This document shows, one piece after another, positions 3,990-47,000 of a DNA stretch of 64,000 nt. Source of the stretch: Mesotaenium endlicherianum (Eukaryota). The stretch is from the NCBI GenBank assembly GCA_009602735.1, contig WELA01003517.1:242900-306899 (forward strand), written 5' to 3'. Each line of letters begins with the position of its first letter. Within the stretch, counting starts at the first letter, position 1. A program made the position numbers and the translations under genes. The notes under the pieces are model-generated. The model ran no database searches, was not told the DNA's origin, and saw only the letters and a program-made list of their open reading frames with translations.

Positions 3990-4042
<53 letters not shown>

Positions 4043-10526: not shown

Positions 10527-11245
10527 TGAAATGAATCAACTTACCAATTAGGCGATTAACAATTAATAAAAATCTTCATATCAACAAGTAATCTTTATGG
10601 TATTTTTCGTTAATTGAATTAACAGCAAAGGACCACACACTAGCAGTGAATAATACTCGTAAGTCAAATGCAAGTAAACTAGCATCAATAATGCAATCAG
10701 TAAACTCATACATAAGCAAGGTTGGAAGACAGTGTGTATCAATGGCTTCTAGCATTGGATTCAGATCTCTCTCAGTAAGCTGTACAAGAGAGTTGGCCTC
10801 GTTTTCGAATGCCGAACTCGAGAGCAATGCCTAGCATATGTATAGGGAATGAGTTTACTGTTCAACGGCCAGTGCGATGGCACCGCCTACCCGAGATTTA
10901 ACCACGTTGGTAGGACCTCGGTTAACCAAATCCACCGCCATCTCCCATCATCCCGAATCGCCATCCATCATAGGAATGTCATCTGGCCATTCATCTAGCA
11001 TCCCACACTTAGATGCATATCGAGGCAGTTCGCTGCTACCGAGCACGGCAGTCAGCTGGCTGTCAAAGAATGTGTCAGCAAGCTGATTTAAGTTGGCTTC
11101 AGCCTGTTGCTTCTGTCTGAGCCCTTAAATTGATAATTATATAAACTCCAGCAGACTTAATACTACATAAAGTTCAGTAGGCTGAACTTAATTAACTATT
11201 ATATTTAAATGAATACTATATCTACTAATATACTGATTCATTACA
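10527..11245 (-). mobile_element. fam1 3' LTR (reverse), preceded on the minus strand by hairpin+PPT; probable 3' end of element A
   Basis: Reverse complement reads TGTAATGAATCAG...ATTCATTTCA and is similar to the 12146-12866 LTR. 11246-11280 is the reverse complement of GTTGTCGAGGCGACAAC...AGGTTGGAGGGAT. Confidence 0.9.
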
Positions 11246-12867
11246 ATCCCTCCAACCTAACTCGTTGTCGCCTCGACAACATTAAACTGAAGAAATCTTT
11301 GGTCAGGGAACTGAACCTGACCAGCCTCCCCCACTGACTGCCTCTTCAGCCTGTGAAATGAATCGACTTACCAAATAGGCGATTAACAATTGATGCCCAC
11401 ATAGACAGGCATACTGTGTAACTTAACAATTTTACAGTTAAAGTAAGAGGAGCCAGTGATGGGCAGACTGATTTGGCACCCACCAGTGCTCTTCCTCTTG
11501 TCCTGTGTGGATGGCAAATAAAGGAAAAGAAGAGGCTTCCAGAAGGATGCAAGTTGCTGAATGCAATGGAGTTTGTCAAAAGCTGGAACCAAAAAAAAGA
11601 CAAAATGTTATATCTTCTGCTAAGAGAGGTACCTCCTCAACCTGAAGAAGTGGTGGAGAAAAAGGTAAGCCCTAAAGAAGAAGTATGCCTTACCCAGAAT
11701 CGAGGACTTGCTTCATACCCTGTCTGGTACTCAGGTGTTCAGTAAGATAGATATCAAAAGTGGTTATCATCAAATCAGAATTGCTGAGGGGGATGAACAC
11801 AAGACTGCCTTCCGCACACGTTATGGACACTATGAGTTCAACGTGATGCCATTTGGACTGACTAATGCTCCTGCCACCTTCATGGGTGCTATGAATGACA
11901 TTTTCAGACCTTATTTGGATAAGTTGGTGCAAGTTTTCCTTGATGATATTGTAATTTTCTCTAAAGATGAAGCTCAGCACACTGAACACTTAGAGACAGT
12001 CCTGGACACTCTGAGAAAAAATCACTTACATGCTAAAATGAGCAAGTGTGATTTCTTTCAAGAAAGTATTGAATTCATAGGCCACGTTGTCAGTAACGAA
12101 GGCATCAGTGTGGACCCTAAGAAAGTCCAGACCATAAGGGACTGGTGTAATGAATCAGTATACTGGTCGATATAATATTCATTTAAATAATATAGTTAAA
12201 TAAGTTCAGCCTGCTGAACTCTAGTTAATAATCAGTCTGCTGGACTTTATACTTAATATCTCTTTAATGACTTGGCCGCAAGTAGCAGGCTGAGGCCACC
12301 TTAAGTCAACTTGCTGACACGTTCTTTGACAGCCAGCTGACTTCCGTACTCGGTAGCAGCGAACTGCCTCAATATGCATCTAAGTGTGGTATGCTAGATG
12401 AATGGCCACATGACATCCCTATGATGGATGGCGATTCGGGATGATGGGAGATGGCGGTGGATTTGGTTAACCGAGGTCCTACCAACGTGGTTAACTCCCG
12501 GGTAGGCGGTGCCATCGCACTGACCGTTGAACAGTAAACTCATTCCATGTACATACGCTAGACATTGCTCTCGAGTTCGACATTCGGAAACAAGGCCAAC
12601 TCTCTTGTATAGCTTACTGAGAGAGATCTGAATCCAAGGCGAGAAGCCATTGATACGCACTGTCTTCTAACCTTGCTTATCTATAAGTTTACTGATTTGC
12701 ATTATTGATGCTAGTTTACTCTCATTTGACTGACGAGTAATATTCACTGCTAGTGCGTTGTCCTTTTGCCGTTAAACGGTTAACGGAAAGTACCATAAAG
12801 ATTACTCGCTGATATAAAGATCTTTATTAATTGTTAATCGCCTATTTGGTAAGTCGATTCATTTCAG

Positions 12868-12879
12868 TGGTATCGGAGC
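12868..12879 (+). promoter_or_regulatory. Primer binding site, tRNA-iMet type (TGGTATCGGAGC)
   Basis: 1 nt after the LTR end, one mismatch to canonical TGGTATCAGAGC. Also at 27792 and 41106. Confidence 0.85.
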
Positions 12880-12900
12880 AGTTATCACAGTCTTCTTTGT

Positions 12901-14379
12901 ATGGTAAGGACAAGGTCTCAAACTAGCAACTCCCGAGACATGGAGAACCAGGATAACGAGAATGTCCAAAACCAGGCGGAAAGCCATGTAGCGGGAAACC
13001 GTACCTATTCGGAAGCAGTAGCGGATACTGCAGCTAGGGAGGCTGCAGATGAGGCAGCTGCTATTGCCTCAGTCGCAGCTCAGCAAGCTGAGGAGGAGAT
13101 AGCCAGACTAGAAGCTGAACAAGTAGCAAAGGCCGCTGAAGATATACAAAGGAGGGAAGGACAGCCAGCTGACGAGCGCACTGTTGAAGAACTTATGGCA
13201 TCAAGGGCCAATGTTCTGAACCCACCTCCTGCCGTACAACTCAATGTACCCCTAGGTCAAATACGTGACCGGCTGAATGCGGCAGGAATTGCTGCTGCAG
13301 GAGCAAGAGGGATTGTTGAGGACACTACTCAGCGAGTAGATGCCAATGCTGCTGCTGCATTTGCTAATCTACCACCCCAAAATGTAGACTTGGGAGCATT
13401 GTTCGTTCAGATGCAGTCGCAAATGGCGACCATGTATCAGTCCCAGCAGGAGGACAAAAGAATCATAATGTCCCTACTCCGGGACAGAGACCAACTGGGG
13501 TCTCACACCACTAGTGGTGGTGGCCGAGGGCCTAGTAAGCCCAAGCCGAAACCTCCCCAGGACTATGATCCTGAGGGAAACAGAAAATATTACCTGATCA
13601 AGTTTCTCGCGGATGTTGAGCAGTGGCTGGAGAACTACCCAGAACTGCAAGATTACGAGAAGGTCAGGCACACCGGTGCGCTACTGAAAGGCAGTGCCGC
13701 AGACTGGTGGCTTTACTGGAAGGAAGAGCGTAAGGCTCGGCAACTCGGTGACCCTACGTGGGTAGAGTTTGTCGAGAAGTTGCATGAGAAGTTTGATGTC
13801 ATCAACCAGCAGGAGAAAGCTATCTATGCGATGATCTCCCTGACACTGAAGCAGACCACTTCAGTTGCTGAGTTTGCTCAAAAGTTCCAAGAGAACATGA
13901 TGAAGCAGCCTGATTTGCCAGAACGGTATAGGATAGCATACTTCAGGTATGGCTTGAAATCCGAGGTCTCTGGTCATTTTGCTGAGAAAAAGTATGAGAA
14001 ACTGGCTGACTTGATCCAGGATGCTGACGCCTGGGATCAGCAGCAGTTCAATCACAAGCGCCAGAGTAACGCTTTGGTGTCTAAGATTGTCAAAAAGCCC
14101 CACGGTTCCTACAATGCAGTTGAAGGAGACCAGGCTGAGGATAATCAGGGTGATGAATATGAGTATGAGTACAATGCTATTCAGTCTAGAGGTAGAGGTG
14201 GTCCCTCTCGAGGTGGCTATGGAAGGGGTGGTGGTAGGACTAAGCCGAGACCAGCCTCAGCAAAATCTACTTGCTACCATTGTCAGCAGAAAGGCCACTA
14301 CAGAGAACAGTGTCCGGTCAAGCACCTGCCTAAGGTCGAGAGAAAAGACCAGCCTTTAAAAGACAGCAACAGTCAGTAA
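12901..14379 (+). CDS. gag: Gag, 492 aa, intact
   Basis: MVRTRSQ start, retrotransposon capsid-like region (AADWW...[13 protein letters not shown]), RG-rich stretch and CCHC knuckle [14 protein letters not shown]. Confidence 0.92.
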
Positions 14380-17300
14380 TCCAGTCTACTGACTGTGAGG
14401 ATGCTAGAGATAGTGAGTCGTCACTAGCTGCCCTCGTAGCAGGTATTATGGGTCCTGCTGAACTGGATTCACTATGCATGCCTGACAACCAGATAAAGGA
14501 GACCATCAGCAATATAGACGTCCAGAGAGTGCACACTCTGGATGCTCTTGTTCCACCTGATGTCCAACATTTCTTTGCTACGTCAGGAGAACAATGCGAA
14601 AGTCAGGAAAAGACAGTCCCCCCTATCCTACTGCATTGCATGATTGCAGGTAGGAAGGTGAGGGCATTTGTTGACGGAGGGGCGTCACATACTTTTATCC
14701 ACAAGGACTTAGTTAAGCGGCTAAGGCTGCCTACTGTCACCCAAGGGAATAGAAAAATATTCCTTGGAGATGCCTCAAGTATCCCGGGAGGAGTTATAAC
14801 CAAGCCTATTGAGGTCCAGTTAGGTTCTGGCATTGCAGTTCTAACTGAAACGCTTACATTTGAGGTACTCAACACTGGCTTTTATGATCTCGTGCTAGGC
14901 AGGTCCTGGCTTAATAGACATCAAGCTGAAGTGTGTTGGAGCAGAGGTACAGTTAAAGTGAGAGGAGCCAGTGATGGGCAGACTGACTTGGCACCCACCA
15001 GTGCTCTTCCTCTTGTCCTGTGTGGATGGCAAATGAAGGAAAAGAAGAGGCTTCCAGAAGGATGCAAGTTGCTGAATGCAATGGAGTTCGTCAAAAGCTG
15101 GAACCAGAAGGAAGACAGAATGTTCTGTCTGCTGCTAAGAGAGGTACCTCCTCAACCTGAAGAAGTGGTTGAGAAAAAGGTACACCCTCCGGAACACCCT
15201 ACTGCTGCAAACATTGTTGCTCAGTACACGGATGTGTTTAATATGCCTCCAGGACTACCCCCTAAGCGGGAAGTAGATCATAGGATTGATTTATTACCTG
15301 GTAGCCAGCCACCCTGGCAACGCACGTATGGCTTGTCTTATTTGGAGAGTGAGGAGTTGAAAACACAGATTGCAGAGCTGGAGGAAAATGGTTACATTTC
15401 TCCCAGTAAATCACCGTACGGCGCACCTATCCTATTTGTTAAGAAAAAGGATGGCAGTATGCGGATGTGTGTGGATTACAGAGCCCTGAACAGAATTACA
15501 GTAAAGAACAAGTATGCTTTACCCAGAATCGAGGACTTGCTTGATACCCTGTCTGGCGCTAAGGTGTTCAGTAAGATAGATCTCAAGAGTGGTTATCATC
15601 AAATCAGAATTGCTGAGGGGGATGAACACAAGACTGCTTTCCGCACACGTTATGGACACTATGAGTTCAACGTGATGCCATTTGGACTGACTAATGCTCC
15701 TGCTACCTTTATGGGTGCTATGAATGACATTTTCAGACCTTATTTGGATAAGTTTGTGCAAGTTTTCCTGGATGATATTTTAATTTTCTCTAAAGATGAA
15801 GCTCAGCACACTGAACACTTAAAGAAAGTGCTGGACACTCTGCGGAAAAATCACTTGTATGCTAAAATGAGCAAGTGTGATTTCTTTAAGGAAAGTATTG
15901 AATTCTTAGGCCACGTTGTCAGTAAAGAGGGCATCAGTGTGGATCCTAAGAAAGTCCAGACCATAAGGGACTGGCCAGTACCACAGTCTGTCTCTGAAGT
16001 TAGATCCTTCCTCGGGTTGGCTAACTACTATAGGAGATTTATTGAGAATTATTCCACAAAGGCCAGTAAACTGACTGACCTTACTAAGAAAGACATCGGG
16101 TATGTGTGGGGGGAAGAGCAGCAGGCTGCCTTCCAGACCCTTAAAGATGCCCTTTGTTCTGCCCCAGTGCTAGCCGTGTATGACCCCAGCAAACCGGTGC
16201 AGGTGGTTACTGATGCCTCTGATTTTGCCATGGGTGCTATTTTGTTGCAGCCTGCTGACAAAACCACAAAGGATGGTAAGGTACGGCAGGAGTGGCATCC
16301 TGTGTTGTATGAGTCTATGAAATTTAATCCAGCGGAGATTAATTACTCAGTGCATGATAAAGAGCTGCTAGCTATCATTCATGTACTCAAACAGTGGAGA
16401 GCATACTTACATGGTAAAGCTTTTAAGGTGATTACAGATCATCTAGCTCTGACCCACTTTCAGAAGAAGTCCAAGCTGTCGAGGAGGGAGAACCGCTGGA
16501 GCCAGATGCTGGAGCAGTTCCAAGTCCAGATCGACTACAAACCAGGGAAGTTGAATCCTGCTGATGCACTCTCTAGAAGACCTGACTTGCAAGAAAGGAA
16601 CTTTAGTCAGCATGCTGTAGATAAAGTCCTGTGTGCACTCACTTCACTAAAGGTGAAAAAGTCCTTCCTTGAACAACTTAGGAAAGCCTACCTTTCTGAC
16701 CCAACATTTGAGCCCAGCCCCACTACTGGTATGTGTCGTGCTACCGCACTCGGGTATAAGCTCAAGGGAGGGGTCTGGGTGACTGAAACCACTTCAGGCA
16801 GGCTGAAGCTGGTCATTCCTAATAATTTGGAAATAAGGTCTCTCTTACTGAGTCAAGCTCATGACAGTCTCCTGGGTGGACATTTGGGGCAGGCCAAAAC
16901 TGTTGGCAAACTGGCAAAACATTATCATTGGGAGGGGTTACCCCGGGAGGTCTTGAAATATGTCAAGTCCTGTGACCAGTGTCAGAGAAATAAGTCTCGG
17001 CACACACCACCCGGAGGTCTCTTGCAACCGCTGCCCATCCCAGCTGGACGCTGGGAAACTATATCCATGGACTGGGTGGTCTCACTACCAAGAACTGCCA
17101 ACGGGCATGATTCAATACTGGTAGTCGTGGATAAACTGACAAAAATGGTCATTTTTATCCCCACAACTGTCAAAGTGACTGCACTCGAAACAGCGAGACA
17201 GTTTTACAACCATGTAGTATGCCAACATGGGCTCCCTTCTAATATCATCTCAGACAGAGACTCAAAATTCACCTCTAAGTTCTGGAGAGCTTTAATGGGG

Positions 17301-18164
17301 TTAATGGGAGTCAAACAGCTGCTCAGCACAGCAAACCACCCTCAGACTGATGGGCAGACTGAAAGAACTAACCGAGTTCTGCAGGAGGTGCTGAGAGCAT
17401 ATATTAACCAAAAACAAGATAATTGGGATGACCTGTTGCCTCAAATTCAGTTTGCGGTCAACAGTGCGGTGCACGCGTCAACGGGCAAGACTCCTTTTGA
17501 ACTCAGCCTGGGTAGAGTCCCTAAGTCTCCTCTAGATGTGCTAGGGGAATCTTTAACTCACCCTGAAGGGATTGACAACCCGGTCTCCCTCCAGTTAACT
17601 CAGGAGTTTGCTGACACCCTGTCAGAAGTCCAACAAAACCTGCACAAAGCCCAAGAAAACCAACAAAAATACGCTAATCAACACCGTCGGGAGCTGACAT
17701 TTTCTAAGGGCGATTTAGTCAAACTGCATTCTCAGCACCTGTACCTCCCTGGTGTGGTCAAGAAAAAGCTTGGCCCTGTCTGGGTCGGTCCATATTCGGT
17801 GGTCCGTCGTGTCGGTCAGAATGCTTACAAACTGAACATGTCAGCTGACTACAAGGGTCACCCGGTCTTTAATGTCTCCTTCCTGGAACCATACATCAAA
17901 GGTGATACACTGTTCACAGGTCGGTTACCTGTCCAACCGGGACCGGTCCCCGCTGTCCGGGACGGCGATCCTGAGGAATATGAGGTCGATGAGATTTTAG
18001 ACGCTCGCTCGGTCCGTCGATCGTCTAAATATGTCATGAAGTACCTCATCCGATGGAAGGGTTACGATGCCTCTGGGGACACTTGGGAATTTAAAGATCA
18101 GCTGACCAATGCCAAAGGGGCGTTGAAACGGTTCCACCTTCGGGCGGCTGGGGCACCTCCCTAA
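14355..18164 (+). CDS. pol: Pol (PR-RT-RNaseH-INT-chromodomain), intact, in -1 frame relative to gag
   Basis: [36 protein letters not shown]; RNase H VTDASD; INT H-H-C-C (HDSLLGGH...CDQC), core [18 protein letters not shown] motif; chromodomain YEVDEILD...YLIRWKGY...DTWE retaining the aromatic-cage residues (group I type). Confidence 0.95.
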
Positions 18165-18488
18165 CAGTCATTTCAGTTGACACGGGAAGGTGACAGGAGG
18201 TCCTGTCTCCATATAAGTTGGAGGGGGATGTGACAGTTAGTGACAGTTGTGACAGGCAGCCCACCTTTAAAATTAAGTTGGAGGGAGTGGTATTCTCTGA
18301 TCACCATATTACACACTCAACCTGCGCTCACACTCACTTGCTCTCTAACTCAATTTTCCCTTATATTCACTCACACCAGGTATTCCACACTAGGAACTCT
18401 CCCGATCGCGTTCCTCTTCATCAAGGGCACTCAGTAGCGGCAAAATATCATGACTTCACTAACTGCATTGTGTTTATGATTGAGCAGG

Positions 18489-20155
18489 ATGACTCAAAAG
18501 TCGGAACTCAAGAGGAAGAGAAGGGCGGAAGAGGCACATGCAGAATACTTGCAATTCCGTGGAGACATCGAATCATCTTCCATCTCCGCTCGGGAATCAC
18601 AACGACTCCAACAACAGCGGGAGGCACAGAAGAAGAAGGAGGAGGAGGAACAGGCCAGACTGAGGCAGGAAGAAATGGACAGAAAAGCTGCAGAGGAGGC
18701 CAAGAAAGCAGAGGAGGAGAGGCAAGCTGAGGAGAAGCGGAAGCAGCAGGCTGAAGAAGAAGAACAGAGGAGAATCAGCAGCTACCGCTACACGGTGCTG
18801 GGCAAGGGCTTTGATCTACTGGAGGAGGCCTTCAAGTATGCCCAGAGAAGTCGCAGTGAGTCGCAGAAGGAAATCCTCCAGAAGGAAGGGGAGACATCCG
18901 AAAACTTTGACAAGTATATAGAGGTCGGCACAGGGCTCCTCCTCTACCACGATTACGCCAGGATGGTAGGATATACCATCGGAGAGGCCAAGGCAATGGC
19001 CCAGGTGAACGAAGCAGGAGCTGTCTCGATTCCTGGTATCTGGGGGGCAGATAGGGTCATCAGGATGATCCCCATGGACGCGGACAGCTTCAAGGACTCA
19101 ACACCCCACAACAGGTTCAAGGCCATGTACAATGAGGTGGAGAGGAGGAGCTGGGAATTCTTGGCCAGAGAAACCAGTCAGCTGGACTTTGCAGGGCACT
19201 GGTACCCTTGTACTCTCAAAAAGACAGACGCTGCCTTCTTCCAAAAGCCCACTGATTGGCGGTGGATGACCATCAACATGAGGGACCAGCAGAATGACAG
19301 GGCGACGGATGAGGATTTCCTGACAGACCTAAAGGGGAACATAGTATTGCCCCCTCACATTGCGGCTTGGGACCCAAGATTGGATGGAGTCAGAGACTGC
19401 ATGAGCCAAGAGATGCAGGGGGACAGAAGCAGGGCCCGAGAGTCATTCTCCAAAGGGAAGCACGCTTATGCCAAATGGGCAAGTAAGCAGGGGGAAAAGG
19501 ACCTCTATGCGGTCCGGACTCAGCAGCCCCCACCAGCACCCAAAAGGGGAAGGTCAGTAGGATATTCTTTTTCTCGGGAAGAGCTGGAGCAGCGGACAGA
19601 GGAGACCCCAGAAGTCTCAGAGGAACTCGGGGACAACGAGGAGGCGGAGTCGGAGGAAGACGAGGAGGAAGGCGAGGAGGAGGACACTAGCCCCGCCGTG
19701 ATCCTGACACCTGCCTCATCCCCTGTAAGGGAGAAGCGGGGTGGGCCCCGCCGCAACCCGCTCAAGAGGAGGATATCACTTGGCTGGGGACTGCCAGAGG
19801 ACAGAGCCCATCTCCAGGCAAGGAGACCCAGTCGGACAGGGCAGAGAGGAGGGCTGCTCGGGAAATAGCCAGAGGCCTGCCAGCATCTCCCTCGCAGAGA
19901 GGGCATGTACCCTTGGCTCATGTCATGCAACATCCTTCTGGGATGCCGGTATACGTACCTGTCAGTTTGAGGGCTGCCCAGGAGAAGGCTGCCTCCCTTC
20001 AGTTTCAGACTGTGCAGGAGGAAACAGCCCAGTTACTACGTTCTCCGCCGGGTCCTTACACGGAACCCCCTTCTCTGACAGGCTTCAAAAGACCCCAAGA
20101 CAGGAGGAGGTCTGGCTCCCCTGAGCATAGGGCCTCAGGGATATCTCCCTCCTAA
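18489..20155 (+). CDS. ORF3 type I, accessory protein of unknown function (~555 aa consensus; 1-nt frameshift near 19737 in this copy)
   Basis: ATG at 18489. Homologous frames in copies C (34669-36330) and D, and a diverged paralog at 24307. Copy C reads through the region where B is shifted. Confidence 0.85.
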
Positions 20156-20204
20156 GGGCAGCAGGCTGGGGATAAGAGGGACAGCACGCTGTTACTAGTG
20201 ATAG

Positions 20205-20240
20205 TGTTGTCGAGGCGACAACATGATAAGTTGGAGGGAT
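20205..20240 (+). promoter_or_regulatory. Terminal hairpin (TGTTGTCG-AGG-CGACAACA) plus polypurine tract (AAGTTGGAGGGAT)
   Basis: Directly precedes the 3' LTR TG. Related modules sit before the LTRs at 11245, 36450 and 48627. Confidence 0.85.
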
Positions 20241-23200
20241 TGTAATGAATCAGTATATTGGTCGATATGATATTCATTTAAATAATATAGTTATATAAGT
20301 TCAGCCTGCTGGACTCTAGTTAATAATCAGTCTGCTGGACTTTATACTTAATATCAATTTAATGACTTGGCCGCAAGTAGCAGGCTGAGGCCACCTTAAG
20401 TCAGCTTGCTGACACATTCTTTGACAGCCAGCTGACTTCCGTACTCGGTAGCAGCGAACTGCCTCAATATGCATCTAAGTGTGGTATGCTAGATGAATGG
20501 CCACATGACATCCCTATGATGGATGGCTATTCGGGATGATGGGAGATGGCAGTGGATTTGGTTAACTGAGGTCCTACCAACGTGGTTAACTCCCGGGTAG
20601 GCGGTGCCATCGCACTGACCGTTGAACAGTAAACTCATTCCATGTACATACGCTAGGCATTGCTCTCGAGTTCGGCATTCGGAAACGAGGCCAACTCTCT
20701 TGTACAGCTTACTGAGAGAGATCTGAATCCAAGGCGAGAAGCCATTGATACGCACTGTCTTCTAACCTTGCTTATGTATGAGTTTACTGATTTGCATTAT
20801 TGATGCTAGTTTACTCTCATTTGACTGACGAGTATTATTCACTGCTGGTGCGTTGTCCTTTTGCCGTTAAACAGTTAACAGAAAGTACCATAAAGATTAC
20901 TCGCTGATATAAAGATCTTTATTAATTGTTAATCGCCTATTTGGTAAGTCGATTCATTTTANNNNNNTAACTGGCCAGTACCACAGTCTGTCTCTGAAGT
21001 TAGATCCTTCCTCGGGTTGGCTAACTACTATGGGAGATTTATTGAGAACTATTCTACAAAGGCCAGTAAAGTGATTGACCTTACTAAGAAAGACATAGGG
21101 TATGTGTGGGGGGAAGAGCAGCAGGCTGCCTTCCAGACCCTTAAAGATGCTCTTTGTTCTGCCCCAGTGCTAGCCGTGTATGACCCCAGCAAACCGGTGC
21201 AGGTGGTTACTGATGCCTCTGACTTTGCCATGGGTGCTATTTTGTTGCAGCCTGCTGACAAAACCACAAAGGATGGTAAGGTACGGCAGGAGTGGCATCC
21301 TGTGTTGTACGAGTCTATGAAATTTAATCCAGCGGAGATTAATTACTCAGTGCATGATAAAGAGCTGCTAGCTATCATTCATGTGCTCAAACAGCGAAGA
21401 GCATACTTACATGGTAAGGCCTTTAAGGTGATTACAGATCATCTAGCTCTGACTCACTTTCAAAAGAAGTCCAAGCTATCGAGGAGGGAGAATCGCTGGA
21501 GCCAGATGCTGGAGCAGTTCCAAGTCCAAATCGACTACAAACCAGGGAAGTTGAATCCTGCTGATGCACTCTCTAGAAGACCTGACTTGCAAGAAAGGAA
21601 CTTTAGTCAGCATGCTGTATATAAAGTCTTGTGGGCACTCTCTTCACTAAAGGTGAAAAAGTCCTTCCTTGAACAACTTAGGAAAGCCTACCTTTCTGAC
21701 CCAACATTTGAGCCCAGCCCCACTACTGGTGTGTGTCGTGCTACTACACTCCGGTATAAACTTAAGGGAGGGGTCTGGGTGACTGAAACCACTTCAGGCA
21801 GGCTGAAGCTGGTCATTCCTAATAACGTGGTAATAAGGTCCCTTTTATTGAGTCAAGCACATGACAATCTACTGGGTGGGCTTTTGAGGCAGGCCAAAAC
21901 TGTTGGCAAACTGGTAAAACATTATCATTGGGAGGGATTACCTCGGGAGGTCTTGAAATACGTTAAGTCTCGTGACCAATGTCAAAAGAATAAGTCTAGC
22001 CACACATCACCCGGGGGCCACTTACAATCGCTGCCCATCCCAGCTGGCCGCTGGGAAACAATATCAATGGACTGGGTGGTCACACTGCCACGAACTGCCA
22101 ATGGGCATGATTCGATTCTTGTAGTCGTGGATAAACCGACAAAAATGGTCATTTTTATCCCCACAACTGTCAAAGTAACTGCACTCGAAACAGCGAGACA
22201 GTTCTACAAGCATGTAGTATGCCACCATGGGCTACCCTCTATTATAATCTCAGACAGAGACTCAAAATTTACCTCTAAGTTCTGGAGGGCTTAATGGGGT
22301 TAATGGGAGTCAAACAGCTGCTCAGCATAGCAAACCATCCTCAGATTGATGGGCAGACTGAAAGAACTAATTGAGTTCTTCAAGAGGTACTGAGAGCCTA
22401 TATTAACCAAAAACAAGATAATTGGGATGACCTGTTACCCCAAATCCAATTTGCGGTCGACATGTGCAGTGCACGCGTCAACGGGCAAGACTCCTTTTGA
22501 ACTAAGCCTGGGTAGAGTCCCTAAGTCTCCTTTAGATATCCTAGGGGAGTCTTTAACTCACCCTGAAGGGATTGACAATCCGGTCTCCCTCCAGTTAACT
22601 CAGGAGTTTGCTGACACCCTGTCAGAATTCCAGCAGAACTTGCACAAAGCCCAAGAAAACCAATAAAAGTACGCTAATCAGCACCGTCGAGAACTGACCT
22701 TTTCTAAGGGCAATTTGGTCAAACTGCATTCTCAGCACCTGTACCTCCCTGGTGTGTTCAAGAAAAAGCTTGGTCCTGTCTGGGTCGGTTCATATTCAGT
22801 GATGGGCCGTGTCGGTCAGAACGCTTACGAACTAAACATGTCAGCAGAATACAAGGGTCACCCGGTCTTTAATGTTTCCTTCCTTGAACCCTACATCAAA
22901 GGGGACACAGTGTTCACAGGTCGGTTACCTGTCCAACCGAGACCGGTCCCCGCTGTCCGGGATGGTGACCCTGAGGAATATGAGGTTGAGGAGATTTTAG
23001 ACGCGCGCTCGGGCCGTCGACCGTCTAAATATGTCATGAAGTACCTCATTCGATGGAAGGGTTACGATGCCTCTGGGGACACTTGGGAATTTAAGGACCA
23101 TTTGACCAATGCCAAAGGGGCGTTGAAACGGTTCCACCTTCGGGCGGCTGGAGCCCCTCCATAACTGTCATTTCAGTTGACACGGGAAGGTGACAGGCGG

Positions 23201-23559
23201 TCCTGTCTCCATTTAAGTTGGAGGGGAAAATATATGACAGTTAGTGTGCGAGAGCGAGAAAGGGACAGTCATGTGAACCCTAAGTGTCAGCATAGTGACA
23301 GATGGGACAGCCTGGCCCACATAAAGCACCTTGGGCAGAAGGAAAAAGGGCCTCGCACAGCAATACATCACTTAGCGCACCTTAAAATACATTCATACGT
23401 TTATGTCTACGGACCGCAACTACGTCAACTCTTAGCAATCACCCGGTAAGGTAAACAGAGGCGAATCCACCATACTAATACGAACATACTTCGTGCCTGC
23501 AATTCCTATGACAAAGGTCGATATCCTACTAACTTGTACCCTGGTTACATGTGCAGGAT

Positions 23560-24303
23560 TGAAAGGGGCAGAGTGCCCTAGTGGAAGCGTAGTGACTCGC
23601 GAGGAAAGAAACTAGTTGCAATCATACTAAAGAGTGCAGCGGCATATTGCTAAGAAAGCTTAGGAAAATTACTTGACATTTTGAGTGGCAAGAAACTGCT
23701 CACAAATGGTTTGGTATGAAAGGCCTTGTCATTACAAACCCGTAGAAATTTACAGAAGTGAAAACTGATCAGAATTGAAGAAGTTATGCCTATTTATAAT
23801 TTTCTGCCTAAGTGCTCCTCTCTAGGAGGAAGCTACGGATTTTCCCAAGTGTTCGTCAAATCGTCCCTTCCAGAATATTCGTGAGTAAGCCAGATCAGTC
23901 TAATCTGACATGTCGAGCCGAATTGACGTCCACATACATGCATCGACATTACTAGAATATTCTATCTTAGACGCGCTAGGCTAAACCGAAACTTCTAGGT
24001 AAATCGACCTAATCGGCACTCCGCGTCAGCCGAACTTACGTGAAGGTTCGAGTTCATTCTAACGGGCCAGATCGCTCGACGCTGTCGGGCAATCCGACGG
24101 TCGCGCTCACCGCAAATTAAAAACAGTCGTTAACCGACCTCATAACTAACTAAACTTCAAAAATCCATAACTCTCTCAATACTTGACCAAATTCGATGAA
24201 TTTTATATCAAAATGACCACAAAAATGCACTCTACACGACTATACAATCAAAACATACTTTCATGAAACTCAAAAGTGCACTTTATAAACCTATGACCTT
24301 ACG
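23560..24303 (-). mobile_element. fam2 solo LTR (reverse)
   Basis: Reverse complement matches the LTRs of element E (TGTAAGGTCATAGG...CCCCTTTCA). TSD AGGAT at 23555-23559 and 24304-24308. Confidence 0.92.
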
Positions 24304-24306
24304 AGG

Positions 24307-25819
24307 ATGGCTCCCACCACACAAAAGGAGGACAGAAAGCGCAAGGCAGAAGAAGCCAGGAGGACAATGGAGCAATACCAGAAGGAGTTGGCGGCGACGT
24401 CCCTCACCAGGAGAGAACAAGAAAGGGTCCGCAGACAACAAGAGGCGGCAAAAGAAGCACAGAGGAAGAAGGATCAGGAAGCGAAAAACCTCAGGAAAGC
24501 TGAGGAGGAGAGACAGAAGAAACAACAAGAAGAAGCGGCAGCGGCAGAGGAGGAGAGAAGGAAAAAGGCTGAAGCGGACAGGCAGAAGAGCTTGGCCACT
24601 TACAGGTACACTGTGGTGGGTGGCCAAAACTTTGATAACCTGAAGGAAGCATTGCTGGCAGCCCAGGAGATCAACAAGCTGGAACAGACAACACTGCTAC
24701 AGAGGGAAGGAGCTGCAGCACTGGATAGGTACATCGAGACACACACGGGTGTGGTCCTCTACGAAGATTATGCCAAGATGGTGGGCTACACAGCAAAGCA
24801 GGCCCGGTACTTTGCCGATGATTTAGAGGAAGAGCCAGTCCCAATACCGGGAATAGTGGGAGATCAAAGACTCATCAGGATGGTGAGCATGCAGCCCGAT
24901 AGCTTTAAGGATACGATATTCTACCTCACACTACTGCCAGCTTACAATGAAGTTGAGAGAAGGAGCTGGGAGTACTTGGCCAGGGAAGCAGGACAGCAGA
25001 TGTTCTCTCCCCACTGGTTCCCATGTAAACTGAGGAAGGCTGAGCATGGACCCCGGTACTACCAGCAGCCAACAGACTGGAGGTGGATGACCGTCACAAA
25101 CAAAAAGCAGGAGTGTGACCGAGCCCAACCGGATGACTTCCACAATGGCCTAGACGGCTACCTCACCCTACCACCTCACATTGCCCCTTGGGACCCAAGG
25201 CTGAATGGCCGCCTAAGCGATATGAATGCAGAGACCAAAGAGCACAGGAGGAGGGGGAGAGACTACTTCTCTAAGGGAAAGCATGCTTTTGTCAAAAAGG
25301 CGAAGAATGCAGGCCGGATAGATATCAGCAGGCTGAAGGCCAAGCAACCTCCGGCGCGCCCTAAGAAAGGGAGGTCAGTAGACTACTCCATGTCCACCAG
25401 AGAGCAGGACGACTTAGTGGACGAGACTCCTACCCTCTCAGAGGAGGAAGATGAGGAGGATGAGGGAGAAGAACAAGGCAGAGGAGAAACATCAGAACCT
25501 GGTTCTCAGGACACCCAGGGGCAGGCGAGAGCAGGGCTTCCTCAGGAGCCAAGATCAGGAATATGGCATCTGACCCCGATCGTGGAGGTAACCGAACCGC
25601 GCACTCGCTCCCCCAGCCCACCTGCCCAAGCAGGGGAAGAAGCTGATCTGACTGTACTTGGCAGCATACAAAGGCAAAAATCCCCAGAGGATAGGAGAGC
25701 CAGAAGAGGAACACGCGGGGTGGCCAGAGGTATGCCGACCTCTCCCTTCGCTCAGGGGCATGTACCTCTTGCCAATGTATTTCAGCACCCTACTGGAATG
25801 CCTGTCTATGTGGGGATCA
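24307..25819 (+). CDS. ORF3 type II (diverged paralog), truncated at the inversion breakpoint
   Basis: About 500 open codons. Shares YRYTV, LY.DYA.MVGYT, DSFKD, YNEVERRSWE.LARE, PTDWRWMT, LPPHIA.WDPRL.G, FSKGKHA and GHVPLA.V.QHP.GMPVYV with type I. Confidence 0.85.
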
Positions 25820-25844
25820 AGTATGCTTGTAACTGTTCAATTGT

Positions 25845-33100: not shown

Positions 33101-36100
33101 CGACCAATTAATATGGTCGTTATACCTAGATCCGTGGGTCCCAACTTAACGGGTTTCCCACGAAACGGCGCACCTTGCGCCGTGGTCAACCAGGTGGTCA
33201 CTAGGTACATAGCAGGCTGGGATCTCGTGGTCGCTCATTCTGGACAGTAGGCTTTACAGTCGGATTTCTACTTGCAAGTCATGTGTGCACTTTTGGGTTC
33301 GTTCTAATGACCAGCCTTCACAGAAATTAACATGGTTGCTTTGTCTGCGCTCCAAATGGGACGAACTAGGACTTTTCGGAAAGGTCTCGTCAAGATGCAT
33401 CCGTTGCCGTTAAGTTTGAAGTAGTATTGGCAGAGTTATGCCCTCTGACATTTCGGGGTCACACAGCGGACAGATTCCATGGTTTTGCACCTAAGTCAGT
33501 GGGATGTGATTTAGCTACATTATGGTCATCTGAATGAGAGCGCCTTTGCAATTCAGTCCCCTGATGTTGTGCATGTGCTATACATGCTTGCATGCTTGGT
33601 AGGCAAGAGGCCATGAGTTTCTAAAGGAGAAGCTCTACTCCTCAAGCTCGCCTCTTTCTTGTGCCTTGTATTCGCGTGCAACTATGGCACACTACGATGA
33701 GCGAATCAAGGGTTATAGATGAGTAAACGGAATTCATTATAAGGGCGAAGATCGCTCCCTGATTTCACACGCTTCCACCTATCTCTGATCTTTTATATTT
33801 AAATGAAATATATTAATCTTGAATAAGCAAGATTCATTTCAGTCAGGAGCTGACTTTTTCTAAGGGCGATTTAGTCAAACTGCATTCTTAGCACCTGTAC
33901 CTCCCTGGTGTGGTCAAGAAGAAGCTTGGCCCTGTCTGGGTCGGTCCATATTCGGTAGTGCGTCGTGTCGGTCGAAATGCTTACAAACTGAACATGTCAG
34001 CGAACTACAAGGGTCACCAGGTCTTTAATGTCTCCTTCCTGGAACCATACACCAAAGGTGATACACTGTTCACAGGTCGGTTACCTGTCCAAACGGGACC
34101 GGTCCCCGCTGTCGGGACGGCGACCCTGACGAATATGAGGTCAATGAGATTTTAGACGCTCGCTCGGTCCGTCAATCGTCTAAATATGTCATGAAGTACC
34201 TCATCCGATGGAAGGGTTACGATGCCTCTGAGGATACTTGGGAATTTAAGGACCAGCTGACCAATGCCAAAGGGGCGTTGAAACGGTTCCACCTTTGGGA
34301 GGCTGGGGCACCGCCCAAACTGTCACTTCAGTAGACATTGGAAGGTGACAGGAGGTCCTGTCTCCATATAAGTTGGAGGGGGATGTGACAGTTAGTGACA
34401 GTTGTGACAGGCAGCCCACCTTTAGACTTAAGTTGGAGGGAGTGGTATTCTGTTTCGGGATCAGCCGGAAAATCTCTGATAACCATATTACACACTCAAC
34501 CTGCGCTCACACTCACTTTCTCAACAAACTCAATCTTTCCCTTATATTCACACACACCAGGTATTTCACACTAGGAACTCTCTCGAGCGCGTTCCTCTTC
34601 ATCAAGGGTACTCGGTAGCGAAAAATATCATGGATTCACTGACTGCATTGTGTTTATGATTGAGCAGGATGACTCAAAAGTTGGAACTCAAGAGTAAGAG
34701 AAGGGCGAAAGAGGCACATGCAGAATACTTGCAATTCCGTGGAGACATCGAATCATCCTCCATCTCCGCTCGGGAATCACAACGACTCCAACAACAGCGG
34801 GAGGCACAGAAGAAGAAGGAGGAGGAGGAACAGGTCAGACTGAGGCAGGAAGAACTAGACAGAAAAGCTGCAGAGGAGGCCAAGAAAGCAGAGGAGGAGA
34901 GGCAAGCTGAGGAGAAGCGGAAGCAGCAGGCTGAAGAAGAGCAGAGGAGAATCAGCAGCTACCGCTATACAGTACTGGGCAAGAGCTTCAATCTACTAGA
35001 GGAGGCCTTCAAGTATGCTCAGAGAAGTCGCAGTGAGTCACAGAAGGACATCCTTCAGAAGGAAGGGGAGACATCCGAACACTTTGACAAGTATATAGAG
35101 GTCAGCACGGGGCTCCTCCTCTACCACGATTACGCCAGGATGGTAGGATATACGATCAGGGAGGCCAAGGCAATGGCCCAGGTGAACGAAGCAGGGGCTG
35201 TATCGATTCTTGGTTTTTGGGGGGAAGGTAGGGTCATCAGAATGATCCCCATGGACGCGGACAGCTTTAAGGACTCTACACCCCATAACCGGTTCAAGGC
35301 CATGTATAATGAGGTGGAGAGGAGAAGCTGGGAATTCTTGGCCAGGGAAACCAGTCAGCTAGACTTTGCAGGGCACTGGTACTCTTGTACTCTTAAAAGG
35401 ACAGAACCTGCCTTCTTCCAGAAGCCCACCAATTGGCGGTGGATGACCATCAACATGAGGGACCAGCAGAATGACAGGGCGATGGATGAGGATTTCCTGA
35501 CAGACCTAAAGGGGAACATAGTATTGCCCCCTCACATTGCGGCTTGGGACCCATGATTGGATGGAGTCACAGACTGCATGAGCCAAGAAATGCAGGGGGA
35601 CAGAAGCAGGGCCCGAGAGTCATTCTCAAAAGGGAAGCACGCTTATGCCAAATGGGCAAGGAAGCAGGGGGAAAAGGACCTGTATGCGGTCCGGACTCAG
35701 CAGTCCCCAGCACCCAAAAGGGGAAGGTCAGTGGGATATTCTTTTTCTCAGGAAGAGCTAGAACAGCTGACAGAAGAGACCCCAGAAGTCTCAGAGGAAC
35801 CCGGGGACGGAGAGGAGGAGGAGTCTGAGGAAGACGAGGAGGAAGGCGAGGAGGAGGACACTAGCCCCGCCGTGATCCTGACACCTGCCACATCCCCTGT
35901 AAGGGAGAAGACGGGGTTGGCCCTGCAGCAACTCGCTGAAGAGGAGGATATCACTTGGCTGGGAACTGCCAGAGGACAGAGCCCATCTCCAGGCACGGAG
36001 ACCCAGTCAGACAGGGCAGACAGGAGGGCTGCTAGAGAAATAGCCAGAGGCCTGCCGGCATCTCCCTCGCAAAGAGGGCATGTACCCTTAGCTCATGTTA

Positions 36101-37167
36101 TGCAACATCCTTTTGGGATGCCGGTATACGTACCAGTCAGTTTGAGGGATGCCCAGGAGAAGGCTGCCTCCATTCAGTTTCAAACCGTGCAGGAGGAAAC
36201 AGCACATTTACTGCGTTCTCCGCCGGGTCCTTACACGGAACCTCCCTCTTTGACAGGCTTCAAAAGACCCCAAGACAGGAGGAGGACTGACTCCCCTGAC
36301 TATAGGGCCCCAGGGGCATCTCCCTCCTAAGGGCGGAAGGCCAAGGGCACAGCATGCTGGATGGGAGAGGGATCAGTATTTTCAGTCGGGGAAACCTATG
36401 TACCCTGTGTCAGTATTGTCGAGGCGAGAACATGTTAAGCTGGAGGGATTGTAATGAATCAGTATATTGGTTGATATAATATTCATTTACATATAACAAT
36501 TAAATTAGTTCAGTTTGCTGACCTCTAGTTAATAATCAGTCTGTTGGACTTTATAATTAATATCAGTTTAATGACTCAGCCAGAAGCAGCAGGCTGAAAG
36601 CTTAAGTCAGCTTGCTGACACATTCTTTGACAGCCAGCTGACTTCCGTACTCGGTAGCAGCGAACTGCCTCGATATGCATCTAAGTGTGGTATGCTAGAT
36701 GAGTGGCCAGGTGACATCCCTATGATAGATGGCGATACGGGATGATGGGAGATGGCGGTGGATTTGGTTAACCGAGGTCCTACCAACGTGGTTAACTCCC
36801 GGGTAGGCGGTGCCATTGCACTGGGCGTTGAACAGTAAACTCATTCCATGTACATACGCCAGGCATTGCTCTCGAGTTCGGCATTTGGAAACGAGGCCAA
36901 CTCTCTTGTACAGCTTACTGAAAGAGATTTGAATCCAAGGCGAGAAGCCATTGATACGCACTGTCTTCTAACCTTGCTTATGTATGAGTTTACTGATTTG
37001 CATTATTGATGCTAGTTTACTCGCATTTGACTTACGAGTATTATTCCCTGCTAGTGTGTTGTCCTTTGCCGTTTAACCACTTAACAAAAAATACCATAAA
37101 GATTACTTGCTGATATAAAGATCTTTATTAATTGTTAATCGCCTATTTGGTAAGTCGATTCATTTCA
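27121..37167 (+). mobile_element. Element C: decayed fam1 chromovirus (5' LTR 27121-27790 lacks its first ~50 bp; 3' LTR 36450-37167)
   Basis: PBS at 27792; fragmented gag and pol; ORF3 34669-36330 with one in-frame TGA at 35554; PPT. Confidence 0.92.
32591..33841 (+). mobile_element. fam3 solo LTR (1251 bp) inserted in the integrase of element C
   Basis: TGTAATG...GATTCATTTCA termini; TSD GTCGG/GTCAG (one mismatch); C pol resumes after it. Confidence 0.88.
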
Positions 37168-44000: not shown

Positions 44001-47000
44001 GATGATATTTTAATTTTCTCTAGAGATGAAGCTCAGCATGATGAACACTTAAGGATAGTCATGGACACTCTCAGAATAAATCAGTTATATGCTAAAATGA
44101 GCAAGTGTCATTTCTTCAAGGAAAGTATTGAATTCCTGGGCCACGTTGTCAGTCAGGAAGGCATCAGTGTGGATCCTAAGAAAGTCCCGACCATAAGGGA
44201 CTGGCCTGTACCACAGTCTGTCTCCAAAACTAGATCCTTCCTTGGGTTGGCTCACTACTATAGGAGATTTATTGAGAATTATTATACAAAGCCAAGTAAA
44301 CTGACTGACCTTACTAAGAAAGACATAGGGTATGTGTGTGGGGAAGAGCAGCAGGCTGCCTTCCAGACCCTTAAAGATGCTTTTTGTTCTGCCCCAGTGC
44401 TAGCCGTGTATGACCCCAGCAAACTTGTGCAGGTGGTTACTGATGCTTCTGACTTTGCCATGGATGTTGTTTTGTTGCAGCCTGCTGACAAAACCACAAA
44501 GGATGGTAAGGTACGGCAGGGGCGGCACCCTGTGCTGTATGAGTCTATGAAACTCAACCCAGCTGAAATTAACTATTCCGTGCATGATGAAGAGCTGCTT
44601 GCTATCATTCATGTGCTCAAACAGTGGAGAGCATACTTACATGGTAAAGCTTTTAAGGTGATTACAGATCATCTAGCTCTGACTCACTTTCAAAAGAAGT
44701 CCAAGTTGTTGAGGAGGGAGAACCGCTGGAGCCAGATGCTGGAGCAGTTCCAAGTTCAGATTGACTACAAACCACGGAAGTTAAATCCTGCTGATGCACT
44801 CTCTAGAAGACCTGACTTGCAAGAAAGGAACTTTAGTCAGCATGCTATACATAAAGTGTTTTGTGCAATCACTTCACTAAAGGTGAAAAAGTCCTTCCTT
44901 GAACAACTTAGGAAAGCCTACCTTTCGAACCCAACGTTTGAGCCTAGCCCCACTGATGGTGTGTGTCCTGCTACTGCACTCGGGTATAGGCTTGAGGGAG
45001 GGGTCTGGGTGAATGAAACCACTTCAGGCAGGCTGAAGCTAATCATTCCTAATAACTTGGAAATATGGTTTCTCTTACTGAGTCAAGCACATGACAGTTT
45101 TCTGGGTGGCCATTTGGGGCAGGCCAAACTGTTGGCAAACTGGCAAAACATTATCATTGGGAGGAATTACCTCGGAAGGTCTTGAAATATGTTAAGTCTT
45201 GTGATCAGTGTCAAAGAATTAAGTCTAGGCACACACCACCGAGGGGTCTCTTACAACCACTGCCCATCCCAGCTAGCCGCTGGGAAACAATATCCACAGA
45301 CTGGGTGGTAACACTACCACGAACTGCCAATGGGCATGATTTGATACTGGTAGTAGTGGATAAACTGACAAAAATGGTCATTTTCATCCCCACAATCGTC
45401 AAAGTAACTGCACTCGAAACAGGGAGACAGTTCTACAACCATGTAGTATGCCAACATGGGCTACTCTCTAATATCGTCTCAGACAGAGACTCAAAATTTA
45501 CCTCTAAGTTCTGGAGAGCTTTAATGGGGATAATGGGAGTCAAACAGCTGCTCAGCACAGCAAACCACCCTCAGACTGATGGGCAGACTGAAAGAACTAA
45601 CCGAGTTCTGCAAGAGGTGCTGAGAGCATATATTAACCAAAAACAAAACAATTGGGATGACCTGTTGCCTCAAATTCAGTTTGCGGTCAACAGTGCGGAG
45701 CACGCGTCAACAAGCAAGACTTCTTTTACACTGAGCTTGGGTAGAGTCCCTAAGTCGCCTTTAGATGTGCTAGAGGAGTCTTTAACTCAACCTGAAGAGA
45801 TTGACAATCCGATCTCCCTACAGTAAAATTAGGAGTTTGCTGACACCCTGTCAGAAGTCCAACAGAACCTGCACAAAGCCCAAGAATATTAACAAAAATA
45901 CGCTAATCAGCACCGTCAAGAACTGACATTTTCTAAAGGCGATTTGGTCAAATTACATTCTCAACACCTGTACCTGCCTGGTGTGGTCAAGAAAAAGCTT
46001 GGTCCGGTTTGGGTCGGTCCATATTTGGTGGTGCGCCGTGTCGGTCAAAATGCTTACAAATTGAAAATGTCAGCAGAATACAAGGGTCACCCAGTCTTTA
46101 ATGTCTCCTTCATGGAATCGTACATCAAAGGTTACACACTGTTCACAGGTTGGTTATTTGTCCAACCGGGACCAATCCCCGCTGTTCGGGATGGTGACCC
46201 TTAGGAATATGAGGTCGAGGAGATTTTAGACGCTCGCTCTCTCCGTTGATCATCTAAATATGTCATGAAGTACCTGGTTAGATGGAAGGGTTACGATACC
46301 TCTGGGGACTCTTGGGAATTTAAAGACCAGCTGACCAATGCCAAAGGGGCGTTAAATTGGTTCCACCTTTGGGCGGCTGGCACATCTCCCTGACCGTCAT
46401 TTCAGTCGCCCTGGACAGGTGACAGGAGGTCCTGTCTCCAAGTAAGTTGGAGGCGAATGTGACAGTTAAACTGGACAGTTAGTGACAGATAGTGACAGTT
46501 GTGACAGGCAGCGTACCTTTAAAATTAAGTTGGAGGGAGTGTGTTCCGTCTCGGGAGCAGCCAGGCAAAATTTATATGTAATCATTTTACACACTCAACT
46601 TGCGCTCATACTCACTTTTTCTCTCTGACTCAATTCTCCTCTTCTACTCACTCACACAAGGTATTACACACTTGGAACTCTCCCTACCACGTTCCTCTCC
46701 ACCAAGGGTACTCAGTAGCGGCAAAGTACCATGACTTCATTGACTGCATTGTGCTTATGATTGAGCACGATAACTCAGAAGTCGGAACTCTAGAGGAAGA
46801 GAAGAGCGGAAGAGGCACATGCAGATTACTTGCAATTTTGTGGCGACATCGAATCATCCTCCATCTCCGCTCGGGAATCACAACGACTCCAACAAAAGCG
46901 GGAGGCACAGAAGAAGAAGGAGGAGGAGGAACAGGCCAGGCTGAGGCAGGAAGAACTGGACAGACAAGCTGCAGAGGAGGCCAAGAAGGCAGAGGAGGAG

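What the first reader, a model, noticed from the sequence alone, without database searches (positions are those of the whole stretch)
18489..20155. Unknown ~555-aa accessory gene (ORF3) carried by a chromovirus
Seen: all four fam1 copies carry a sense ORF between the chromodomain and the PPT. It has an N-terminal basic NLS-like motif (KRKRR / RKRK), an E/K/R/Q coiled-coil-like stretch, a ~250-aa Trp/Tyr-rich conserved core, an acidic tract and a conserved C-terminal motif (RG.P.SP...GHVPLA.V.QHP.GMPVYV). There is no signal peptide or TM segment, so it is not env-like. Motif-level conservation between types I and II implies purifying selection. Known: extra ORFs are common in Athila/Tat/Ogre/SIRE but unusual in chromoviruses. 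I do not recognise the domain. Inference: a nuclear trans-activator or anti-silencing factor (VANC-like by analogy only). Best candidate here for an undescribed system.
Basis: partly seen in the sequence, partly recalled or inferred. Interest (0 to 1): 0.9.

Follow-up and report, generated by a model that had tools for sequence, protein, structure and literature searches.

The report
Swappable extra gene in a chromovirus
A family of jumping genes, likely from a green alga or other non-seed plant, carries an extra gene for a roughly 555-residue protein that matched nothing in our searches; selection has conserved it, it comes in two very different versions on nearly the same element, it is broken in all four copies here, and it likely makes a nuclear helper protein whose job is untested.

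Summary
The gene is real, but this copy is broken. The open frame at 18489 gives 459 aa because the frame shifts near 19740; the ~554-aa frame is seen whole only in the sister copy at 34669, apart from one internal stop. All four copies in the window are damaged. ORF3 evolved under purifying selection (dN/dS 0.21-0.24, pol 0.13-0.30). It exists as two types, 49% identical in the core with saturated dS, on pol genes 93.5% identical, so it behaves as an old, exchangeable cassette. The cassette lies between two copies of a hairpin-plus-polypurine-tract motif. Both types keep a branch-point/acceptor signal just before the ATG, suggesting an internal promoter and 5'-UTR intron (not seen in RNA). 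No homologue was found in Pfam, PDB or 1.84 billion protein representatives; AlphaFold failed. Three polyA RNA runs show the whole element, ORF3 included, nearly silent. Best reading: a trans-acting nuclear accessory protein that favours the family's expression (about 0.4); a VANC-like demethylation role is untested. Sense 3' extra ORFs are known in chromoviruses (Tekay, 18%), so this is a new variant of a known kind with an unplaced protein.

The parts
12146..12866 (+). 5' LTR of copy c1 (TG...CA); 97.1% identical to the 3' LTR; c1 is nested in the pol of copy c2 with a 5-bp target duplication
12868..12879 (+). primer-binding site of tRNA-Met type (recognised from recall)
   Evidence: sequence
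12901..14379 (+). gag, 492 aa (Ty3_capsid, Retrotrans_gag, zf-CCHC)
14448..18164 (+). pol, 1238 aa from this ATG; its frame opens upstream and overlaps the end of gag; PR-RT-RH-IN-chromodomain
17979..18137 (+). chromodomain with the three aromatic cage positions Y, W, Y (cage positions recalled)
   Evidence: PF00385, E 7.9e-9
18191..18230 (+). short inverted repeat plus first PPT-like tract (18215-18228) followed by TG; left edge of the ORF3 cassette, where type I and type II copies part
18229..18300 (+). three tandem TGACAG-containing units, TATA-like block and second PPT-like tract (18275); candidate internal promoter; blocks partly shared with the type II spacer
18380..18487 (+). candidate 108-nt 5'-UTR intron: GT donor, CTAAC branch (18459), CAG acceptor one base before the ATG; not seen in RNA
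   Evidence: negative
18489..20155 (+). ORF3 type I of c1; open for 459 aa to 19868, frame broken near 19740; basic N-terminus, charged helix, core (aa 98-345), basic patch, acidic tract, C-terminal motif (aa 446-489)
20206..20239 (+). 7-bp hairpin and the working PPT (20228-20239); right edge of the cassette
20241..20961 (+). 3' LTR of c1
23191..23559 (+). type II spacer of c2: PPT-like tract (23215), TGACAG units, donor-like GTAAG/GTAAA, TACTAAC branch, CAG acceptor
23560..24303 (-). solo LTR of another family inserted at the type II acceptor/ATG, flanked by a 5-bp target duplication
24307..25818 (+). ORF3 type II of c2, open for 504 codons, then cut by a rearrangement (the listed 524-aa ORF ends in foreign sequence)
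10527..11432 (-). displaced fragment: type II-like C-terminal DNA, a different 3' UTR, hairpin, PPT and a fam1 LTR
34669..36330 (+). ORF3 type I of c3, 553 codons, one internal stop at codon 296
46770..48455 (+). ORF3 type I of c4, no ATG, three internal stops

Best explanation
ORF3 is a selected accessory gene of a Ty3/gypsy chromovirus family, present in two deeply diverged types on near-identical pol backbones and likely exchanged as a cassette between duplicated polypurine-tract motifs; it is likely transcribed from its own internal promoter through a short 5'-UTR intron and likely makes a nuclear adaptor protein that would act in trans to keep the family expressed. Shown: position, two types, purifying selection, duplicated hairpin-PPT edges, broken state of all four copies. 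Inferred: promoter and intron (about 0.6), nuclear location (about 0.75), exchange by template switching at the PPT-like edges (about 0.6). Proposed mechanism (about 0.4): the N-terminal basic cluster imports the protein; a rigid charged helix spaces it from a folded core that, with the basic patch behind it, binds nucleic acid or chromatin; the acidic tract and the conserved C-terminal motif recruit or block a host chromatin factor; the result is activation or protection from silencing.
For: dN/dS 0.214, 0.235, 0.215 for the 3 of 3 type I pairs (bootstrap upper limits 0.33-0.36), 0.16-0.19 in the core; pol control 0.13-0.30 over 6 pairs. Differences by codon position 16/13/41 and 29/25/68. 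Type I vs II: 49% identity in the core, 62% in the basic patch, 61% in the C-terminal motif, dS about 2-3 (saturated), while c1-c2 pol has dS 0.23 and 93.5% DNA identity. c1 and c2 stop aligning just after the first PPT-like tract; 15 contigs of DNA run X1 leave the c1 sequence at 18226 and their first 11 letters agree with c2; 14 contigs carry the other 3' UTR before the last hairpin. Summed contig depth over type I ORF3 is 0.33 of that over pol, so many copies carry something else or nothing. Branch plus acceptor one base before an ATG occurs at 7 of 2192 ATGs in the window; 2 of these are type I ORF3 starts, the only two with a donor 90-130 nt upstream, and type II has the same signal on the far side of its solo LTR. 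Charged segment: 35 of 57 residues charged, 3 bulky hydrophobic, 36 i+3/i+4 salt pairs against 20 in shuffles, 0 of 5000 reaching it. Precedent: maize Grande gene23 is a nuclear protein from its own internal promoter (PMC7264820).
Against: No function was tested. No homologue and no usable structure (pLDDT 34-36), so 'binds nucleic acid or chromatin' rests on composition alone. In 3 polyA runs, depth over the six ORF3 bins was at most 0.94 except one bin of one run (6.04, five molecules ending at one place), and no RNA joint was among the 15 joints shown of 173: no intron or ORF3 transcript seen, though gag and pol are near-silent too. The 7 branch-plus-acceptor ATGs are close to the 4.6 expected by chance across the window, so the signal counts only through its position in both types. 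The depth ratio is no copy number and is biased down by the 90% cut-off (ORF3 c1-c4 89.2% against pol 91.9%). c2 is rearranged and adjoins an N gap. Very different ORF3 types share about 90% identical LTRs, which argues against an LTR-sequence-specific activator.
Confidence: 0.4

Rival explanations
1. Post-transcriptional helper: ORF3 binds the element's RNA or integration complex (export, packaging, nuclear import) or suppresses RNA silencing, like retroviral accessory proteins.
For: Basic patch and Arg-rich start of the C-terminal motif are conserved between types; two types serve the same backbone, which fits a generic or host-facing target; this role is proposed for plant extra ORFs in PMC7264820 and PMC11728184.
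Against: No RNA-binding or other domain hit; an acidic tract and many SP/TP sites look more like a chromatin regulator (inference); many copies seem to lack type I.
Confidence: 0.25
2. Strict VANC-like factor: binds a short repeated DNA motif of its own family and removes DNA methylation across the element.
For: A small TGACAG cluster travels with the cassette: 4 copies in 18191-18255, 5 in c4, 3 in type II; conserved core plus variable linkers as in VANC (PMC5735166); the neighbouring gypsy carries a cytosine methyltransferase, so methylation matters here.
Against: No DUF1985 or DUF287 hit; the motif cluster is three tandem units, not an array; LTRs do not differ by ORF3 type; the element is near-silent in the runs laid.
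Confidence: 0.15
3. Competition or addiction factor: the types restrict rival copies or harm cells that lack them, and diverge because they recognise self.
For: Two old types kept on one backbone, with swap points at both ends.
Against: No toxin-like or dominant-negative Gag-like similarity; no partner gene in the cassette; 4 of 4 copies decay freely.
Confidence: 0.1
4. Captured host gene or inserted foreign element riding as a passenger.
For: Own promoter-like spacer, intron-like signal and higher GC3 (0.58-0.68 against 0.49 for pol) suggest outside origin; the host genome could not be searched.
Against: Selection as strong as on pol; no intron in the coding region; no cellular homologue among 1.84 billion representatives.
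Confidence: 0.07
5. Env-like envelope or movement protein.
For: Same position and sense as env, possibly spliced.
Against: No hydrophobic segment; the N-terminus is basic and charged, not a signal peptide.
Confidence: 0.03

Closest known systems
Sense additional ORFs between pol and the 3' LTR (aORF-3S / eORF-3'F) of plant LTR retrotransposons: SIRE 74%, TatII 26%, Retand 22%, Tekay 18% (PMC6317226 Additional file 5; PMC7264820)
   Same: Position, orientation, size over 250 codons, presence across copies, no recognised domain.
   Different: No transmembrane segment; carrier is not Tekay (cage-type chromodomain; RT outside the angiosperm clade), and the table lists no such ORF for Tcn1, Chlamyvir, Galadriel, Reina or CRM; two exchangeable types between duplicated PPT motifs.
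Maize Grande gene23 and other antisense 3' aORFs (Retand, RIRE2, Ogre)
   Same: Conserved like pol; Grande gene23 is nuclear and has its own internal promoter.
   Different: Those are antisense, in non-chromoviruses, often with Transposase_28 or plant mobile domains, which were not hit here.
Tekay 5' aORFs (sunflower Tekay 13-2; PMC11728184)
   Same: Chromovirus-borne, about 400 aa, predicted NLS, helices and disorder, present in one subgroup and absent in others.
   Different: They lie 5' of gag, are Pro-rich and mostly disordered; ORF3 is 3' with a conserved 250-aa core. No direct sequence comparison was made.
VANC anti-silencing proteins of VANDAL DNA transposons (PMC5735166)
   Same: Element-encoded, dispensable in cis, conserved domain plus variable regions.
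   Different: DNA transposon host; DUF1985/DUF287 domains absent; no motif arrays or demethylation shown.
Variable ORF3s of bdelloid rotifer LTR retrotransposons (PMC5408684, abstract only)
   Same: Modular, exchangeable ORF3 slot.
   Different: Those ORF3s are recognisable (env, GDSL esterase, DEDDy exonuclease); this one is not.

Membership tests
Chromovirus (Ty3/gypsy) | LTRs, gag, and pol in the order PR-RT-RH-IN | tested here: met
Chromovirus (Ty3/gypsy) | Chromodomain at the end of integrase | tested here: met
   PF00385 at pol aa 1178-1230, E 7.9e-9
Tekay clade | RT/RH groups with angiosperm chromoviruses | tested here: not met
   The 15 angiosperm rows form a branch with SH-aLRT 100 that excludes the window's RT in a quick 62-row tree; those rows carry no clade labels, so their being Tekay is assumed
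Tcn1 / Chlamyvir / Galadriel clades | Phylogenetic placement with reference elements | tested here: inconclusive
   No reference sequences were at hand; no well-supported group holds the window's RT. Cage-type chromodomain and overlapping gag/pol frames fit Tcn1, a tRNA-Met PBS fits Galadriel or Chlamyvir better
aORF-3S / eORF-3'F | Sense ORF of at least 250 codons between pol and the 3' LTR, separate from pol | tested here: met
aORF-3S / eORF-3'F | Kept in many copies with conservation like that of pol | tested here: met
   4 of 4 copies in the window; dN/dS 0.21-0.24
env-like ORF | Transmembrane segment or signal peptide | tested here: not met
   highest 19-residue hydropathy 0.88 and 0.73
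env-like ORF | Spliced mRNA from the 5' LTR | tested here: inconclusive
   RNA depth too low; no RNA joint among those shown
VANC | DUF1985 / DUF287 domains | tested here: not met
   Pfam scans to E 1 and E 10
VANC | Tandem arrays of a short target motif in non-coding regions | tested here: inconclusive
   only a three-unit TGACAG-containing repeat after pol
VANC | Sequence-specific DNA binding and demethylation in trans | not testable with these tools
   needs expression and methylome data
Retand/Ogre/Athila eORF domains | Transposase_28, plant mobile domain, ATHILA ORF-1 or DUF390 | tested here: not met
   no such Pfam hit; domain list

The most novel reading that the evidence does not exclude
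ORF3 is a new protein fold and a retrotransposon-encoded counter-silencing factor, carried in a swappable cassette that was once the front of the LTR (the first PPT plus TG being a fossil LTR edge); elements trade ORF3 types at the duplicated PPTs the way viruses trade accessory genes, as moves in an arms race with the silencing system of an early-diverging plant.
Probability: 0.2. Interest if true: 0.85.

Novelty: new variant of a known kind. Interest (0 to 1): 0.55.

Why it matters
The function of extra ORFs in plant LTR retrotransposons is an open question: thousands are catalogued, most without a domain (PMC6317226, PMC7264820). This one gives a clean comparison: two old versions, and probably ORF3-less copies, on one backbone in one genome, so copy number, age and methylation can be compared by type. 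If it counters silencing, it would be a retrotransposon counterpart of VANC with an unrelated protein. If not, it remains an unplaced protein family in a chromovirus branch for which the REXdb summary lists no extra ORFs.

Tried and rejected
Homologue searches with no relative found: Pfam (best E 0.021), PHROGs (1 of 4 members hit one unnamed family at E 0.0026, not pursued), PDB sequences (best E 0.45), word-indexed 5.8-billion search with the type II core and with alignment A3 (near lengths only, longer and shorter not searched), full HMMER scan of 1.84 billion representatives (one hit, P0121, a TPR-repeat protein, HH probability 4.6%, rejected), metagenome contigs twice and viral contigs once. 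The profile held only 4 sequences of 2 types, so remote homology is not excluded. AlphaFold2 single-sequence and 4-row models: mean pLDDT 35.9 and 34.2; the Foldseek search on the second had no match at E 0.001 and is meaningless at that confidence. No ESM Atlas result was obtained. No RNA holder listed in the run search. No host genome is held. The ORF3 spacer shows no similarity to the fam1 or fam2 LTR, so the fossil-LTR idea rests only on the PPT-plus-TG motif. An env-style splice from the donor-like sequence at the gag start would put the gag ATG out of frame with ORF3 (read from the sequence), so it was set aside. The exact 5000-bp offset between c1 and c2 is explained by nesting of c1 in c2. 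Paper searches listed no description of this ORF; the library lacks most subscription journals, and Additional files 1 and 3 of PMC6317226 could not be read and may list single chromoviruses with extra ORFs.

Full report
Setting. The window is eukaryotic: an intron-containing Clp-family gene lies at its left end (Clp_N), followed by about 50 kb of nested LTR retrotransposons. No tool named the host and no genome is held. A charophyte alga or other non-seed plant is inferred: the chromodomain keeps its aromatic cage, which PMC6317226 (section 9) limits to non-seed plants; the RT falls outside the angiosperm branch of a quick tree of 62 rows, its nearest rows being unnamed metagenome proteins at up to 62% identity; and a neighbouring gypsy carries a cytosine methyltransferase, an arrangement described in Klebsormidium (PMC5890265, passages).

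The carrier. Copy c1 (12146-20961) has LTRs 97.1% identical, a tRNA-Met-type PBS, open gag (492 aa) and open pol (1238 aa from the first ATG) ending in a chromodomain. It is nested in the pol of copy c2. Copies c3 and c4 are older and more decayed.

The observation. A sense ORF starts at 18489 but is open for only 459 aa: a one-base gap relative to c3 and c4 near 19740 shifts the frame, and the C-terminal motif lies in the other frame. Copy c3 shows the full frame, 553 codons with one internal stop; c4 lacks the ATG and has three stops. The type II gene of c2 is open for about 504 codons, has a solo LTR of another family inserted exactly at its start with a 5-bp target duplication, and ends in a rearrangement. 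So 4 of 4 copies carry the gene and 0 of 4 carry it whole.

It is a selected gene. Nei-Gojobori dN/dS for the three type I pairs is 0.214, 0.235 and 0.215, with bootstrap upper limits of 0.33-0.36; a pol segment gives 0.13-0.30 over six pairs. Third codon positions carry most differences (41 of 70 and 68 of 122). The part behind the c1 break is also constrained (0.30-0.36). These values include decay after insertion, so selection on the source elements was at least this strong.

It behaves as a cassette. Types I and II share 49% identity in the core, 62% in the basic patch and 61% in the C-terminal motif, with synonymous sites saturated, yet their pol genes are 93.5% identical with dS 0.23. 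The ORF3 split is therefore far older than the backbone. c1 and c2 stop aligning just after a PPT-like tract behind pol. That tract copies the working PPT (the same 11-nt core), is followed by TG in type I, and like the working PPT is preceded by a short inverted repeat. The junction is not only an assembly feature: in DNA run X1, 15 contigs leave the c1 sequence at 18226 and begin like c2 (first 11 letters; agreement 0.62, so more types may exist), and 14 contigs carry a different sequence before the last hairpin, matching the displaced fragment at 10527-11432 that also holds type II-like C-terminal DNA. Summed contig depth over type I ORF3 is 0.33 of that over pol (six against fourteen bins); the tool warns this is no copy number, and the 90% cut-off biases it down. 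Contigs with most of ORF3 deleted (18756 joined to about 20396) exist at low depth. Template switching at the shared PPT motifs is the inferred route.

Expression signals. The two spacers are barely alignable but keep blocks in order: TGACAG units, a TATA-like block, a branch-like ACTAACT and GCAG-G-ATG. A GT donor lies about 110 nt upstream in both. Branch plus acceptor before an ATG occurs at 7 of 2192 ATGs (4.6 expected), so it is not rare by itself; what counts is that it sits at the ORF3 start in c1, c3 and type II (c4 has lost the acceptor). In three polyA runs of the same species label (1.0-1.8 billion letters read each) only 223, 322 and 209 reads lay on 8.1 kb of the element, mostly on the LTR and, assuming the usual strand convention, antisense on integrase; ORF3 depth was at most 0.94 except one bin in one run, and no RNA joint was among the 15 of 173 shown. 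The family is near-silent in those samples, so ORF3 expression is neither shown nor specifically refuted. Type II was not examined in reads.

The protein. Basic cluster at the N-terminus (NLS-like, pattern recalled); a 55-residue charged segment with the signature of a single alpha-helix rather than a coiled coil; a 250-aa core with conserved aromatic, His and Cys residues; a basic patch; an acidic tract of net charge -15 to -20 per 40 residues; SP/TP-rich linkers; a conserved 44-aa motif; no hydrophobic segment. No relative was found in Pfam, PDB, 5.8 billion proteins by word index, 1.84 billion representatives by full HMMER scan, or metagenome and viral contigs; the one hit was a TPR-repeat artefact. 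AlphaFold gave no usable model.

Mechanism. I commit to a trans-acting nuclear adaptor that favours expression of its family (0.4). Its parts are those of chromatin-associated regulators (inference), it is not needed in every copy, and maize Grande gene23 is a precedent for a nuclear accessory protein with its own promoter (PMC7264820, abstract and parts 1-2 of the main text). Because very different types share about 90% identical LTRs, the target is more likely a host factor, generic chromatin or the cassette's own spacer than an LTR-specific motif, which lowers a strict VANC model (0.15; PMC5735166, passages). An RNA- or particle-level role is the main rival (0.25).

Comparison. Additional file 5 of PMC6317226 lists sense 3' extra ORFs for 18% of Tekay elements and none for the other chromovirus clades; Additional file 4 lists their known domains, none hit here. 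Tekay 5' aORFs with predicted NLS (PMC11728184, passages), fungal chromoviruses with an unnamed extra ORF (PMC2864245, figure legend), methyltransferase-carrying algal chromoviruses (bioRxiv 10.64898/2026.05.21.726589, passages) and modular rotifer ORF3s (PMC5408684, abstract) show that the slot is known. Seven paper searches listed no description of this protein. Verdict: a new variant of a known kind, with an unplaced protein and an unusual PPT-bounded, two-type cassette; function untested; interest 0.55.

Noticed in passing
window 57173-60894, minus strand: A decayed Ty3/gypsy element carries a C5 cytosine methyltransferase right after its protease (PF00145, E 6.5e-8 at 57722-58024; motif I-like and PCQ motifs in adjacent frames), like the Klebsormidium Gypsy-Dnmt3 of PMC5890265. 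Also a clue to the host lineage.
   Followed up: partly
window 55031-55540, minus strand: A 170-aa frame with no Pfam match, cut by the fam2 insertion, inside the methyltransferase-carrying element, upstream of its RT pieces.
   Followed up: no
window 50798-55026, plus strand: A second, short chromovirus (fam2; 4.2 kb, chromodomain E 9.5e-20, no extra ORF); its solo LTRs lie at 23560-24303 and, in part, 40471-41021 on the opposite strand.
   Followed up: partly
window 49574-50696, minus strand: Two similar RT N-terminal pieces (49762-50053 and 50264-50555, 86% alike) separated by a 215-bp fragment of a fam1-like LTR.
   Followed up: no
window 32591-33841: A 1.25-kb solo LTR of a related family (starts and ends like the fam1 LTR, holds a 53-bp tandem repeat) inserted in the integrase of c3.
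   Followed up: partly
window 11433, 25819-25845, 27121: Copy c2 is scrambled by inversions whose junctions hold short patches of nearby sequence; either repair with templated inserts or assembly error.
   Followed up: partly
window 14330-14379: The pol frame overlaps the end of gag around a T/A run, a candidate -1 frameshift site.
   Followed up: no
window 16920-18540 and the LTR, in RNA runs X22-X24: Most reads lie antisense on integrase or on the LTR and share identical flanks, which suggests a few copies read through inside host transcripts.
   Followed up: no
window 700-7600, minus strand: Host Clp-family chaperone gene (ClpC/ClpD-like, label recalled) with GC-rich introns full of AC and AG repeats.
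   Followed up: no
window 39718-40470: GC-rich stretch with a 208-bp imperfect duplication and no identified coding role.
   Followed up: no
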